Assembly (NCBI GenBank): GCA_041497675.1
Contig: JBGQGY010000174.1
Location: 1-5,881 of the forward strand
DNA: 5,881 nt
From: a bacterium
GTDB lineage: Bacteria; Sysuimicrobiota; Sysuimicrobiia; Sysuimicrobiales; Humicultoraceae
Direction of reading: 5' to 3'
Shown here: piece after piece, positions 3,001 to 5,881 of the stretch
Position numbering within the stretch: the first letter of the stretch is position 1
How the letters are laid out: each line of letters begins with the position of its first letter
Program-made: the position numbers

Positions 3001-5881
3001 TTCGCGCGGCTCGGGGCGTGTGTATTGCGTATATGGCGCACGATGACCTGTGGGTGCCGGACCACCTGGAGTTGTTATCCTCTTGTCTCGACGAACATGA
3101 CACTGAGCTTGCCTACAGCCGTCCTTTGTGGGTGGAGCCCGACGGCGCGATCATGCCCGGGACCTTTAACCTAAACCACGCGGAAACGCTGGGGTTGTTT
3201 TTGGCCAGAAAGAGCAACCGCATTCCCTCCGGATGTGTTTTGCACCGCACGGAATGCTTTGCCAAATGCGGTTATTGGAATGAGACGTTATCTTCCGGTG
3301 GGGACTGGGACATGTGGGCCAGAATCATTGAGAGCGGAAAACAACGCGGCGTGGCTTATCTGGCCATACCCACCAACCTTCACTTTCGAGCCATCTGGCG
3401 CAGAGACGCCGACGTGTGGCCGCCCGAGTTGAGGGTGTGGAAGGCGCTGCATGCCGCAGAGCGCTTGATGCCTTCCGCGCTGAGGATTCCTGTCGCGACG
3501 GGTTTGACGGAGCAAGAAGCCGCCTGGAGGGTCATGTCCCTTGACGGGCAAAAATGGACGAGGGAGTTACGGGTCGCTGTTGACCAGGTCCTGGATTGGC
3601 GCGTTTGTCAAAGTGACGAATTGATGCACGAGCTACTTAAGCGACAATTTGGCCACAGTCCCTTCAGGCGGAAGCTGGTCCGGTGGCTCCGGGACACCAA
3701 ATGCCGTGTAGAGAGGGCTATGCCATAGACGTCGGGACTATCGAAACAGGTCCTCATCCTCAGGACGGACCAGATCCGCCGCCGGGCCCACCCCGGCGTA
3801 GTCTAGCCCGCGGATCAGCACCAACGGGGTCCCCTCTGCGGCCTGTCCCTGAAGGAGATTCGCCAGCGCCGCGCACTCGTCGGCGACAGCCTCGATCGAG
3901 ACACGCAGCACGTACCCGTACCGGTCCTCCTCGCCGATATACGATCGCAGCACGCGCAGCCCCGAGGCGCCGATCGCCACGCCCGTCGTGCCCTGCCGGA
4001 ATGGGCGGCCGTGGCTGTCGTTGACGATCACCGCCAGATCCACGCCAAACGTCTGACGCAGCCCCGCCCGGAGGCGATCGGCCGACGCATCGGGATCCCG
4101 GGGCAGCAGCGCGACGACGTCATCGCCAAGCCCGACGTTCGAGTGATCAACGCCGGCGTTGGCGCAGACGAATCCCAGCCGGTGCTCCGCGATGATGAGC
4201 CCCGGGCGCACCCGGCGGATCGCCTTCGACTCGCGCAGGATCACTTCGACCATCCGCGGATCCTTGTGCGCCTCCTCGGACAGGCGCACGGCCTCGGGTC
4301 CCGGCGTGATGGTGCGCAGATCCACCACGTGACCTTCAGCCTTGGAGACCACTTTGTGCGCGACAATGACCACGTCGCCTTCCTGCGGCACCAGCCCGGC
4401 GTCCCGCAGCGCAGCGCCGATCGCGCCGACCAGATCGTCGCCGGGTCTGATCTCCGGAAACGGCTCGGGAGCCCAGGCCGAGACGGTCTTCATCGAGGCC
4501 GAGCGTCGGCGGGCAGGTGCGCAACGCGGATGCCCAGGTCGCGCCGCCGATACCGGATGTTCAGTCCGATAATCAGCACCGCCAGCCTCTCGATCGCCGC
4601 CGCGGCGTCCAGCCCGCCCGCATCGACACCACGGGCGCCGATCGCGTTCGACAGTTCGACCACCTGCGCGCGCGCCGCCGCGTCGTTCCCGCAGACCAAC
4701 ACGTCTTGATCGAGCAGTCGGGATGGATCGGCCAGCAGGCGCGCCGAGAGCGTGTGAAACGCGGCCACGACCCGGGCGTCGGGCGCCAGCGCTTGTGTTT
4801 CGGCCGCGGCCGATCCATCGGGCGGCGGGACGAATGCGCGCCCCTCTCCCATCGACACGGTGGCGTCCACGACGATGCGACCGGAGAGTTCCCCAGCCAC
4901 GGCCTTCACGAACTCTCCGTGCCCTTCGAGGGGCACGGCCAGGATCACAAGATCGGCGCGCCGGCACGCATCGCTGTTCCCCGCACCGGTCGCGTTGTGC
5001 AACTGCAACCGCTCGGCCGCCGCCTGCGCGCGGGCCGGGTCCCTCGATCCGATGATCACGTCGTACCCAGAGGCGCAGAGGCGGATGGCCAGTCCGTATC
5101 CCAGATTGCCGGTGCCGCCGAGGATCGCGATACGCATCAGGCCGCACGCTCTGGGCCGGCGACGGCCAGCGCGTACGCGTCGGCCGGAAAGCGCCGCATC
5201 GCCCGCGCGATGTCGTCGTGTCCCACGCCCTGGATGATGGCCGGATAGCGTTCGAGGTAGTCGAGGCCGAGCCCGTGCAGTTCGATGTCCGCGAGCATCT
5301 GCGCCACGCCCTGGTTGGTTTCCAATCGCACCGCGAGGGACCCGACGAGAAAGGTCCGCGCATCAGCCAGCTCTTCGACGCGGGGACCGTCACGCTGCAG
5401 CGTGCGAATTTCGTGCAGGATCGCTTCGGCGGCGCGCTCGACATTCGCCGGGTTCACCCCGGCTTTGACCCACCACGGGCCCGCGAGCAACCCGGCGCGC
5501 AGATCGCTAAACGCGTAGTACGCCATCCCCTGACGCTCGCGGACGTTCTCGCCGACCCGACCCATCAACCCCAACTGACCGAGCAGCAGGTTCGTCACCA
5601 TCGTCGCGTAGTACTCCGGATCCCCCCGCCGGATGCCCGGCGCGCCGAGCACCAGATCGGACTGCGACTTCCCCGGGACCGCGATGTCCCGTCGCACCGG
5701 CCGGCCGAGCGGCCGCGGCTCGGGGAGTGCCGGCAACTTAAAACCATCCCCAGCCGGCCACGCCCCAAAGGCCTTCGCCACCTGCTCAACGGTGGCACCC
5801 GCGCTGATGTCACCGACGATCGCGAGCAATGTCACGCCCGCGTGCACGTGGCGCGCATGGAACGCCCGCAGATCGTCAGGC

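What a model noticed while it worked through the whole genome (the two positions that open the first line are those of the whole stretch)
3738..5137. F420 user without F420 synthesis: CofE, Fno and 12 F420-type enzymes but no deazaflavin pathway
The genome keeps an operon of F420-0:glutamate ligase CofE (g03644) and NADPH:F420 oxidoreductase Fno (g03645) and 12 genes of enzyme families tied to cofactor F420 (7 luciferase-like, 3 PPOX-class, 2 deazaflavin-dependent nitroreductase-type), yet has no gene for making the deazaflavin (CofG/CofH/FbiC) or for adding the phospholactyl group (CofC, CofD). Most of its family shows the same pattern. I propose that this soil bacterium takes up F420 or F420-0 made by neighbours and only trims it to its needs (glutamate tail, reduction): a cofactor-F420 auxotroph, a life style not yet described for this cofactor.
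Evidence so far: ncbifam.tsv over-cut hits: TIGR01916 CofE 277 bits (cut 181), TIGR01915 Fno 198 (150); TIGR03619 x3, TIGR03560 x2, TIGR03617, TIGR03621, TIGR03618, TIGR03668 x2, TIGR00026 x2. Six-frame searches of the whole genome (98.6% complete): TIGR03551 CofH 0 hits at E<=1e-3, PF01983 CofC 0 hits; TIGR01819 CofD 0 hits at E<=1e-20, the only PF01933 protein g01337 is the YvcK type; only 5 genes with a Radical_SAM Pfam row in all (g01202, g01427, g01880 MoaA, g02948 RlmN, g03496 LipA), none FO-synthase-like. In the 33 other Humicultoraceae genomes CofH is found in 3 and CofD in 4, while the CofE family is recorded in at least 28 of 33 and in 83 of 93 genomes of the order (relatives.tsv, call 126). 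So the [...]
(Added by a program. Inside this text positions count along the whole contig: contig position 1 is position 1 of the stretch shown here. "Call 12" and the like, gene names such as g00115 and contig names such as C1 are that model's own, and its searches are not shown. The text may have been shortened before it was handed on; [...] marks where a part breaks off. The agent that wrote the report below was given it as the finding of a first reader that could run no searches.)

Follow-up and report, generated by a model that had tools for sequence, protein, structure and literature searches.

The report
F420 user that cannot make F420
This uncultured sediment or soil bacterium keeps the enzymes that finish, recharge and use the redox cofactor F420 but has no known gene for building it, so it probably depends on F420 or a near-finished precursor from neighbouring microbes, an idea that databases already predict for some actinobacteria but that nobody has tested.

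Summary
Window 3738-5137 (minus strand) encodes CofE (TIGR01916, 277 bits, cut-off 181) and Fno (TIGR01915, 198 bits, cut-off 150). The two genes overlap, and an M16 peptidase gene upstream overlaps Fno. Six-frame searches of the 98.6%-complete genome find no CofG, CofH, CofD or CofC. They do find 24 luciferase-like genes, 7 of them over F420-class cut-offs. The gap is not a binning artefact. 59 of 94 genomes of the order have CofE but none of the other four genes (36 of 54 high-quality ones). A 4-contig relative has a clean empty site where its sister species carries a cofH-cofG-...-cofD-cofC island, and this genome has the same empty site. CofE is inherited vertically and is under purifying selection (dN/dS 0.10-0.25) in these lineages. 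The best reading is salvage of F420-0 or short-tailed F420: CofE re-glutamylates it and Fno reduces it. The claim that this lifestyle was never described is too strong, because NCBIfam holds 'putative F420-0 ABC transporter' families built on the same logic. That transporter is absent here (0 of 94), and I found no importer. Other genomes of the order have cofC/cofD with an importer gene but no FO synthase, so they look like FO scavengers.

The parts
5137..5880 (-). C-terminal part of an M16 zinc-peptidase subunit, cut by the contig end. Its stop overlaps the Fno start.
   Evidence: PF05193 90.8 bits. TGATG overlap. An M16 pair precedes Fno-CofE, or an Fgd-like gene plus CofE, in 17 of 22 neighbourhoods, F420 makers included. 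The link is therefore synteny, not shown function.
4490..5137 (-). Fno, NADPH:F420 oxidoreductase
   Evidence: TIGR01915 197.5 bits (cut-off 149.8). Near full-length match to solved Fno proteins: 5n2i E 3.5e-35 and 1jax/1jay E 8e-29. Over cut-off in 65 of 94 genomes of the order, but found in only 4 of 23 in the F420-making family f4.
3738..4493 (-). CofE, F420-0:L-glutamate (gamma-glutamyl) ligase, stand-alone type
   Evidence: TIGR01916 277.1 bits (cut-off 180.65). Residues 6-251 align to A. fulgidus CofE (7uld, 2g9i, 2phn), E 1e-49. 58 of 251 positions are invariant in 32 order-wide sequences, and dN/dS is 0.10-0.25.
2249..3728 (+). Low-GC segment (GC 0.57-0.59) with a cupin gene (2249-2770) and a family-2 glycosyltransferase gene (2748-3728) on the opposite strand. 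It is context only, not part of the F420 genes.
   Evidence: In 7 of 21 relatives' neighbourhoods an enolase-superfamily gene lies directly after CofE instead. In the congener G021 the 445-aa gene follows CofE after 35 bases.
790..2127 (-). 445-aa protein of no known family with a P-loop-like N-terminus. It lies downstream of CofE, directly or after one enolase-superfamily gene, in all 7 family-f1 neighbourhoods examined.
   Evidence: 0 Pfam and 0 NCBIfam hits. Found in 31 of 33 genomes of family f1 and 0 of 60 elsewhere in the order. It is also present in f1 genomes that have the full pathway, so it does not replace CofC or CofD. ESM Atlas leads: AAA_17 kinases and kinase plus nucleoside 2-deoxyribosyltransferase fusions.
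2..805 (-). PLP-dependent enzyme of the D-cysteine desulfhydrase / cysteate sulfo-lyase family, cut by the contig end. Context only.
   Evidence: PF00291 116 bits; best NCBIfam hits are below cut-off.

Best explanation
The window carries a translationally coupled operon, M16 peptidase, Fno, CofE. Its last two genes are the only F420-pathway genes left in this genome. The organism still encodes many F420-type oxidoreductases. It has lost, or never had, FO synthase (CofG/CofH) and the enzymes that attach the phospholactyl group (CofC/CofD). The most likely mechanism has four steps. (1) The cell takes up a deazaflavin that already has the phospholactyl carboxylate, either F420-0 or F420 with a short glutamate tail, released by F420 makers in the same community. 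(2) CofE adds or re-extends the gamma-glutamate tail. This would raise affinity for the F420 enzymes and probably trap the cofactor in the cell, as folylpolyglutamate synthetase does for imported folate. (3) Fno keeps the pool reduced with NADPH. (4) The luciferase-like and split-barrel enzymes use F420H2. Shown here: the gene content, its distribution over the order, empty syntenic sites, vertical descent of CofE and purifying selection on it. Inferred: uptake, the form taken up, the trapping role of the tail, and that the F420-class enzymes really use F420.
For: Both proteins exceed equivalog cut-offs and align to solved CofE and Fno over almost their whole length. Own genome: no CofG, CofH, CofD or CofC, not even fragments at contig ends, and only 5 radical-SAM genes. 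Order-wide: CofE in 90 of 94 genomes and 54 of 54 high-quality ones. By my tally, CofE is present with none of CofH, CofD or CofC in 59 of 94 genomes: f1 27, f3 22 of 22, f5 8, plus 2 incomplete f4 bins. Among high-quality genomes the count is 36 of 54. These include near-closed genomes: G001 (4 contigs), G039 and G080 (20 contigs each, G080 100% complete). Empty sites: the flanks of the G002 island (cofH, cofG, folP, folK, hisA-like, cofD, cofC, luciferase-like gene; about 8.8 kb) are 85% identical to one 3.15-Mb contig of G001, where about 1.4 kb stands in its place. In this genome the same flanks lie 1.3 kb apart on C47. C89 is 93-94% identical to the congener G022 up to the gene before its cofH-cofG, then continues with tRNA-Ile and other DNA. 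CofE is maintained: dN/dS is 0.10-0.25 in CofE-only pairs against 0.11-0.18 in makers. Of 109 columns invariant in 6 makers, only 2 are kept by fewer than half of 23 CofE-only sequences. The CofE tree follows the families, with 3 label changes, the minimum possible. Links to F420: Fno sits beside CofE in f1 and f3. In three of the five f4 maker neighbourhoods examined an Fgd-family luciferase-like gene holds that place (scanned in G077: TIGR03557 234 bits, cut-off 210). In G080 the order is Fno, CofE, TIGR03619 enzyme. F420-class enzymes persist: 7 over cut-off here, and TIGR03619 is over cut-off in 78 of 94 genomes. Deazaflavin import seems to occur in the order. Eight or nine genomes have CofC/CofD but no FO synthase, and in all 6 loci I looked at the nitroreductase-cofD-cofC unit includes or adjoins an ECF S-component (G020, G023, G034, G092) or an ABC importer (G082, G083).
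Against: No importer was identified. The predicted actinobacterial F420-0 binding protein has 0 of 94 matches at E<=1e-15. The only FecCD-type permease here scores best as BtuC. The cofD-linked S-component has no tblastn hit in this genome at E<=1e-3. A RibU-type S-component is present here but missing from the CofE-only genomes G001, G003 and G021. From general knowledge, F420-0 is an intracellular intermediate and is not known as an environmental pool. CofE-only genomes carry fewer TIGR03619 genes than makers, 0-5 against mostly 4-11, which could mean the system is being run down. All genomes are metagenome bins. This one has 272 contigs and none shorter than 2062 bases, and contig C159 ends 17 bases upstream of folP, the side where G002 has cofG. 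A congener (G022) still has cofG and cofH, so any loss here is recent. The TIGR 'F420-dependent' subfamilies are predictions, not assays.
Confidence: 0.58

Rival explanations
1. The cofactor is made in the cell by enzymes unrelated to, or too diverged from, CofG/CofH/CofC/CofD, so the organism is not an auxotroph.
For: Absence of homologs cannot exclude a non-homologous route. Two conserved genes of unknown role lie just after CofE: an enolase-superfamily protein in f1 and f3, and a 445-aa P-loop-like protein in f1. The riboflavin-pathway enzyme RibD, which supplies the FO precursor, is present here.
Against: Four steps would have to be replaced together. Only 5 radical-SAM genes exist here. 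The 445-aa protein is also present in f1 genomes with the canonical genes (G002, G028, G020, G023) and absent from the CofE-only families f3 and f5. The enolase-type gene also stands beside CofE in G002, which has the full pathway, and scores best as a sugar-acid dehydratase. Family f3 lacks RibD in 19 of 22 genomes, so those genomes could not even supply the FO precursor.
Confidence: 0.12
2. CofE, Fno and the 'F420-class' enzymes of these lineages now work on a different substrate or cofactor, for example folate glutamylation as in Chlamydia FolC2, so nothing needs to be imported.
For: CofE-fold ligases with other substrates exist: the NCBIfam family TIGR04132, and earlier scan notes e1-1195426 and e1-708644. 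The Fno fold also occurs in STEAP metalloreductases. F420-class assignments of luciferase-like enzymes are predictions.
Against: CofE scores 81.6 bits on the folate-type family (cut-off 350) against 277 bits on CofE. A canonical FolC is present here (325 bits) and over cut-off in 84 of 94 genomes. The same single-copy CofE ortholog, in the same synteny, is the only CofE in the F420-making family f4. Its conserved columns are unchanged in CofE-only lineages. It stays linked to an F420 reductase, Fno or an Fgd-like gene.
Confidence: 0.1
3. The F420 system is a decaying remnant. The upstream genes were lost recently, and CofE, Fno and the oxidoreductases are on their way out, with no cofactor supply.
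For: A congener (G022) and a sister genus member (G002) still carry cofG and cofH. CofE-only genomes have fewer TIGR03619 genes than makers. One PF04075 gene here has an in-frame TAG.
Against: CofE is intact in 54 of 54 high-quality genomes. dN/dS is 0.10-0.25 across whole CofE-only families, and Fno is present in 22 of 22 genomes of f3. Retention on that scale is not expected for useless genes.
Confidence: 0.06
4. Assembly or binning artefact: this organism has cofG, cofH, cofC and cofD, but they fell on unbinned contigs or contigs under 2 kb.
For: 272 contigs, none under 2062 bases. C159 ends 17 bases upstream of folP, where G002 has cofG. G022, of the same genus, has cofG and cofH.
Against: No partial hit to any of the four genes anywhere in 3.97 Mb, although partial genes at contig ends are seen in other fragmented bins. 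Both places where relatives carry the genes are bridged by contigs here without them (C47, C89). On C159 the genes after the hisA-like domain are not cofD-cofC. Near-closed relatives show the same pattern.
Confidence: 0.04

Closest known systems
Predicted F420-0 salvage in Actinobacteria: cofE plus the 'putative F420-0 ABC transporter' (NCBIfam/TIGRFAM TIGR03868, TIGR03869, TIGR03873; hypothetical equivalogs, never tested as far as I could find)
   Same: CofE is the only F420 biosynthesis gene kept, many F420-class enzymes are present, and an F420 reductase sits beside cofE. The logic is the same: import the tail-less cofactor and finish it.
   Different: The transporter that defines that system is absent: 0 of 94 genomes at E<=1e-15, and the best score here is 47 bits against a cut-off of 392. 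No transporter gene lies beside cofE in any of 22 neighbourhoods except ABC ATPase genes in one maker. The phylum is different (Sysuimicrobiota, formerly CSP1-3). Here the trait covers most of an order. That those families were defined on cofE-only actinobacteria is recalled, not from a call.
Folate salvage with folylpolyglutamate synthetase (FolC) in folate auxotrophs (comparative genomics in PMC1971073; I saw the search listing and abstract only)
   Same: The final glutamate ligase is kept after the core pathway is lost. Polyglutamylation of an imported cofactor serves retention and enzyme affinity.
   Different: The cofactor and the ligase fold differ. For F420 neither uptake nor a trapping role of the tail has been shown.
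Stand-alone CofE with fno or fgd in bacterial F420 makers (Chloroflexi type; FEMS review PMC8498797, passages read)
   Same: The same CofE type, with no FbiB reductase domain, and the same pairing with an F420 reductase. In family f4 of this order it is part of a full pathway.
   Different: In this genome and in 58 others of the order, cofG, cofH, cofC and cofD are missing.
Candidate deazaflavin importers noted earlier in this scan (e1-5583573, Thorarchaeia: ECF S-component with cofE; e1-2661697, archaeon: ECF transporter beside cofD; e1-4236325, Devosia: fgd-cofE-ABC). These are AI notes, unchecked.
   Same: A partial F420 pathway combined with a vitamin-type importer. I found the cofD-linked form in this order.
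   Different: This genome has no importer gene linked to cofE.

Membership tests
CofE (F420-0:gamma-glutamyl ligase, TIGR01916 / PF01996) | Score over the curated equivalog cut-off | tested here: met
   277.1 bits against 180.65; PF01996 251 bits
CofE (F420-0:gamma-glutamyl ligase, TIGR01916 / PF01996) | Full-length likeness to solved CofE, with conserved acidic metal/GTP-site residues | tested here: met
   Residues 6-251 align to 7uld/2g9i/2phn, E 1e-49. D116, D159 and E206 are invariant in 32 sequences. They align to A. fulgidus D109, D150 and E208. That these three are the Mn/GTP ligands is recalled, not from a call.
CofE (F420-0:gamma-glutamyl ligase, TIGR01916 / PF01996) | Orthology to the CofE of genomes with a complete F420 pathway | tested here: met
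   Single copy, same synteny (peroxiredoxin, M16 pair, reductase, CofE) in makers and non-makers. The tree follows the families.
CofE (F420-0:gamma-glutamyl ligase, TIGR01916 / PF01996) | GTP-dependent glutamylation of F420-0 | not testable with these tools
   Needs an enzyme assay
Fno (NADPH-dependent F420 reductase, TIGR01915) | Score over the curated cut-off and likeness to solved Fno | tested here: met
   197.5 bits against 149.8. 5n2i E 3.5e-35; 1jax/1jay E 8e-29. STEAP domains score lower, E 1.7e-21 or weaker.
Complete F420 biosynthesis (F420 maker) | FO synthase CofG + CofH (or FbiC) | tested here: not met
   0 matches in the own genome; 5 radical-SAM genes in all
Complete F420 biosynthesis (F420 maker) | CofC (FbiD) and CofD (FbiA) | tested here: not met
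   Best 28.5 bits (cut-off 105) and 21.1 bits (cut-off 257)
Predicted actinobacterial F420-0 salvage system (cofE + TIGR03868/03869/03873 ABC importer) | cofE as the only F420 biosynthesis gene, together with many F420-class enzymes | tested here: met
Predicted actinobacterial F420-0 salvage system (cofE + TIGR03868/03869/03873 ABC importer) | Substrate-binding protein TIGR03868 over cut-off | tested here: not met
   33.7 bits in the six-frame search and 47.4 bits for the open frame, against a cut-off of 392.4. 0 of 94 genomes at E<=1e-15.
Predicted actinobacterial F420-0 salvage system (cofE + TIGR03868/03869/03873 ABC importer) | Permease TIGR03869 and ATPase TIGR03873 over cut-off and beside cofE | tested here: not met
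   Permease 235 bits (cut-off 437), which scores better as BtuC (323 bits). ATPase 124 bits (cut-off 372). Both lie on another contig, C171.
FolC2-type folate gamma-glutamate ligase (TIGR04132) | Score over cut-off, and no canonical FolC in the genome | tested here: not met
   81.6 bits against 350. FolC is present at C11:21509-22738, 325 bits.

The most novel reading that the evidence does not exclude
F420 is traded like a vitamin inside one bacterial order. There is a three-step ladder. The first group makes it (family f4, a few f1 genomes). The second group scavenges FO: it keeps cofC/cofD and has an ECF S-component or an ABC importer built into that operon. The third group, the majority and this genome among them, keeps only CofE and Fno and takes up F420-0 or short-tailed F420 through an importer unrelated to the one predicted for actinobacteria. 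That would make F420 a public good on which an abundant soil and sediment phylum depends.
Probability: 0.4. Interest if true: 0.8.

Novelty: new variant of a known kind. Interest (0 to 1): 0.62.

Why it matters
F420 surveys count makers; the 2021 review contains no 'scaveng', 'uptake' or 'salvage'. If most of an abundant soil, sediment and hot-spring phylum uses F420 without making it, three things follow. Gene-based maps of F420 use are too narrow. F420 joins cobamides, folate and thiamine as an exchanged cofactor. A missing cofactor may also be one reason these bacteria resist pure culture. Adding F420, F420-0 or FO to media is a cheap test. The order also offers natural contrasts for finding the first deazaflavin importers: makers, FO scavengers and CofE-only genomes, sometimes within one genus.

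Tried and rejected
Importer search.
- TIGR03868/03869 in the own genome and TIGR03868 order-wide gave no member.
- The binding proteins on C35 and C62 and the permease and ATPase on C171 look like BtuF/BtuC-type or generic ABC parts.
- The RibU-type S-component at C42:22613-23140 (PF07155, 118 bits) has relatives in f1 21 of 33, f3 19 of 22, f5 12 of 12 and f4 1 of 23. It is absent from the CofE-only genomes G001, G003 and G021, and f3 mostly lacks RibD, so plain riboflavin uptake explains it. No FMN riboswitch or any other Rfam family lies beside it or in the window. Two EcfT genes exist.
- The cofD-linked S-component of G020, G023, G034 and G092 has no hit in this genome. In the species collection, 61 loci encode a relative. 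Only 5 have cofD within 5 kb (4 of them are the same loci I already held, plus one Symbiobacteriaceae bin that also has cofC and cofE), and 1 has fno next to it. The family as a whole is therefore not tied to F420.

Neighbouring genes.
- The M16 pair is also present in makers.
- The enolase-type gene scores as a sugar-acid dehydratase and is also present in G002.
- The 445-aa protein is restricted to f1 whatever the pathway status.

Expression.
- RNA-labelled runs hold 0.05-0.07 of the sampled words.
- When laid, one 190-base contig of a metatranscriptome run lies in CofE (3762-3951, about 95% alike), and a run only guessed to be RNA has short pieces in CofE, Fno and the M16 gene. This is too little to call the genes expressed.

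Other checks.
- The CofH-like hits in f6 and f7 are MqnC/MqnE of the futalosine pathway, not FO synthase.
- The 'CofD fragment' of G093 is a gene cut by the contig end, not a pseudogene.
- Whether the G002 island was gained or the others lost it is unresolved. CofH of G002 is 86% identical to that of G022 and about 70% to f4, which parallels CofE (83% and 57%) and fits descent within the order. The island's third-position GC is lower than that of its flanks.
- Papers Ney 2017 (PMC5315465) and Selengut and Haft 2010 (PMC2953692) are not held. What I say about them is recalled.
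Full report
WHAT IS IN THE WINDOW. The window is a whole 5881-base contig, C174 of a 3.97-Mb bin that is 98.62% complete, 3.63% contaminated and in 272 contigs. 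On the minus strand lie three genes in a row. The first is the C-terminal part of an M16 peptidase (5137-5880). The second is Fno (4490-5137; TIGR01915 197.5 bits, cut-off 149.8). The third is CofE (3738-4493; TIGR01916 277.1 bits, cut-off 180.65). The stop of each gene overlaps the start of the next (TGATG, ATGA). CofE aligns over residues 6-251 with A. fulgidus CofE (7uld, 2g9i, 2phn; E 1e-49). Fno aligns almost end to end with two solved Fno proteins (5n2i, E 3.5e-35; 1jax/1jay, E 8e-29). Downstream there is a low-GC segment with a cupin gene and a glycosyltransferase gene on the other strand, then a 445-aa protein of no known family, then a PLP enzyme.

THE ABSENCE IN THIS GENOME. Six-frame family searches find no CofG and no CofH. 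The best CofC-model hit is 28.5 bits. There are 5 radical-SAM matches in all. No fragment of any of the four genes appears at a contig end, although such fragments are seen in other fragmented bins of the order. Two places where relatives carry these genes are bridged here by contigs that lack them. First, the flanks of the G002 island lie 1.3 kb apart on C47. Second, C89 is 93-94% identical to the congener G022 up to the gene before its cofH-cofG, and then continues with tRNA-Ile(GAT) and lower-GC DNA. On C159 the folP, folB and folK/hisA-like genes are followed by a SagB-type dehydrogenase. In G002 the corresponding genes are followed by cofD and cofC. One caveat remains: C159 ends 17 bases upstream of folP, the side where G002 has cofG, and the bin holds no contig under 2062 bases.

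F420 USERS IN THIS GENOME. There are 24 luciferase-like matches. Of the 24 luciferase-like frames scanned, 7 pass the curated cut-offs of F420-class families, and most of the rest hit F420-class or Mer-like families best but below cut-off. There are 2 PF04075 matches, one of them interrupted by TAG, and 4 TIGR03618 matches, 2 at or over cut-off. FolC is present, so CofE is not needed as a folate ligase. CofE scores only 81.6 bits on the FolC2-type family, whose cut-off is 350.

THE ORDER-WIDE PATTERN (94 genomes; two of them, G017 and G024, are flagged unpublished and enter only these tallies).
- CofE: 90 of 94 genomes, and 54 of 54 high-quality ones.
- CofH: over cut-off in 19 of 94. By family the matches are f4 20 of 23, f1 3 of 33, f3 0 of 22 and f5 0 of 12. 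The sub-cut-off hits in f6 and f7 are MqnC/MqnE.
- CofD: over cut-off in 29 of 94.
- CofC: over cut-off in 27 of 94, in nearly the same genomes as CofD (26 of the 27).
- Fno: over cut-off in 65 of 94. By family f1 28 of 33, f3 22 of 22, f5 11 of 12, but f4 only 4 of 23.

My tally from these tables gives three states.
(A) Makers: about 20 genomes of f4, plus G002 and G028.
(B) CofC/CofD and CofE without FO synthase: G020, G023, G034, G081-G083, G092, and probably G093 and G078.
(C) CofE only: 59 genomes (f1 27, f3 22, f5 8, and 2 incomplete f4 bins). Among high-quality genomes this is 36 of 54. Without the two unpublished genomes the counts are 57 of 92 and 34 of 52.
State C includes G001 (4 contigs, 97% complete), G039 (20 contigs) and G080 (20 contigs, 100% complete).

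NOT A BINNING ARTEFACT. G002 contig C11 carries cofH, cofG, folP, folK, a hisA-like gene, cofD, cofC and a luciferase-like gene, set between housekeeping genes (class-I LysRS on one side; MoaA, SigH and RlmB on the other). Its flanks match one 3.15-Mb contig of the sister species G001 at 85% identity. There, about 1.4 kb replaces the 8.8-kb block. Presence or absence of the pathway is therefore a real polymorphism inside a genus.

COFE IS KEPT FOR A REASON. In 22 neighbourhoods CofE sits in the same synteny in makers and non-makers: peroxiredoxin, M16 pair, then a reductase, then CofE. The reductase is Fno in f1, f3 and some others. In three of the five f4 neighbourhoods examined it is a luciferase-like gene of one cluster; the member scanned (G077) is of the Fgd family (TIGR03557, 234 bits, cut-off 210). 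In G080 the order is Fno, CofE, then a TIGR03619 enzyme. The CofE tree groups the sequences by family with the minimum of 3 label changes. Pairwise dN/dS is 0.10-0.13 in f1, 0.16-0.21 in f3 and 0.20-0.25 in f5, against 0.11-0.18 in makers. 58 of 251 positions are invariant in all 32 sequences. Of 109 columns invariant in 6 makers, only 2 are kept by fewer than half of the 23 CofE-only sequences, and both changes are hydrophobic swaps. This argues against a relic and against a change of substrate.

MECHANISM. CofE activates a terminal carboxylate, so its substrate must already carry the phospholactyl group. Per the review passages, CofE both adds the first glutamate and extends the chain. With no CofD, that substrate has to come from outside, as F420-0 or short-tailed F420. 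Fno would then keep it reduced. I infer a trapping and affinity role for the tail by analogy with folate salvage. The review states that the tail raises affinity for F420 enzymes.

STATE B SUPPORTS THE IDEA THAT DEAZAFLAVINS ARE IMPORTED IN THIS ORDER. In G020, G023, G034 and G092 an ECF S-component (PF12822, 58-71 bits; 50-69% identical among the four) lies inside or next to the nitroreductase-cofD-cofC unit. In G082 and G083 an NMT1-type ABC importer follows cofC. None of these has a counterpart in this genome: the S-components give no hit at E<=1e-3, and the G083 binding protein gives only a 26%-identity hit.

WHAT IS MISSING. I found no importer for this genome; the details are in Tried and rejected. 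Expression is not shown. CofE-only genomes hold fewer TIGR03619 genes than makers.

COMPARISON WITH WHAT IS KNOWN. NCBIfam contains 'putative F420-0 ABC transporter' families, so F420-0 salvage with cofE is an existing database prediction. The lead came from the earlier scan note e1-4236325. That these families were defined on cofE-only actinobacteria is recalled, not from a call. This genome fails the defining transporter features, so it works like that system but is not a member of it. In the paper library I found no description of F420 uptake, salvage or auxotrophy. The twelve phrases had no hit at all; of the six phrases the four that would describe acquisition had none, and the 18 papers listed there held only 'synthesize F420' or 'F420 biosynthesis genes'. 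'F420 + cofE + salvage' gave 3 papers and 'F420 + cofE + cofD + scaveng' gave 2, none relevant by listing. 'F420 + auxotroph' gave 133 papers, of which 15 were listed and two were checked by passages and found irrelevant. The 2021 review contains no 'scaveng', 'uptake' or 'salvage' and mentions only a possible exporter in an endosymbiont. The two Sysuimicrobiota papers do not mention F420 in their main text; I did not look at their supplements.

VERDICT. The finding is a new variant of a predicted but untested kind. It is of real interest because of its scale and because it offers testable contrasts.

Noticed in passing
window 790-2127 (-): A 445-aa protein with a P-loop-like N-terminus and no Pfam or NCBIfam family. 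It is 68-89% identical across 31 of 33 genomes of family f1, absent from the other 60 genomes of the order, and lies downstream of CofE (directly or after one gene) in all 7 f1 neighbourhoods examined. ESM Atlas leads point to AAA_17 kinases and to fusions of a kinase with a nucleoside 2-deoxyribosyltransferase.
   Followed up: partly
L105:2655-3206, L107:7108-7656, L106:4207-4770, L102:3579-4130; L104:2954-5528: Genomes of the order that have cofC/cofD but no FO synthase carry an ECF S-component (4 genomes, 3 families) or an NMT1-type ABC importer (genus g28) inside or beside the nitroreductase-cofD-cofC operon. These are candidate FO importers. Outside these loci, only 1 further locus of 61 relatives has cofD nearby and 1 has fno.
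   Followed up: partly
L030:14113-16843 (G002) and L035:4297-6759 (own contig C159): folP, folK and a HisA-like gene travel together. They are fused as FolK-HisA-like in this genome, and in G002 they sit in the middle of the F420 island between cofG and cofD. In three further loci folP lies next to the S-component. I cannot explain why a HisA-like barrel and folate genes keep company with deazaflavin genes.
   Followed up: no
order-wide: Family f3 lacks RibD in 19 of 22 genomes and has a RibU-type S-component in 19 of 22, so it is probably also a riboflavin auxotroph. Without RibD it lacks the riboflavin-pathway intermediate from which FO is made (review passage), which fits its complete lack of FO synthase.
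   Followed up: partly
window 2130-3730: A 1.6-kb lower-GC segment (0.57-0.59, against 0.63-0.71 around it) with a cupin gene and a family-2 glycosyltransferase gene. It lies where 7 of 21 relatives have an enolase-superfamily gene. It is probably a recent insertion. Independent sediment-run contigs span it.
   Followed up: partly
own contig C89:9718-9794 and onward (L103): tRNA-Ile(GAT) sits exactly at the break of synteny with the congener G022, which has a 108-aa gene and cofH-cofG there. About 4 kb of lower-GC DNA with low coding scores follows, and a tRNA-Ala lies further on. This may be an integration hot spot that replaced the FO synthase genes.
   Followed up: partly
own contig C5:33453-33731: A PF04075 (F420H2-dependent quinone reductase type) frame with one in-frame TAG. 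It may be a pseudogene.
   Followed up: no
L099, L100, L101 (G092, G093): Only families f6 and f7 show MqnC/MqnE of the futalosine menaquinone pathway. No cross-hit of that kind appears in the other 92 genomes in the CofH search.
   Followed up: no
L035:2359-4023 (own contig C159): A 554-aa protein with two SagB-type (nitroreductase-fold) dehydrogenase domains lies next to the folate genes.
   Followed up: no
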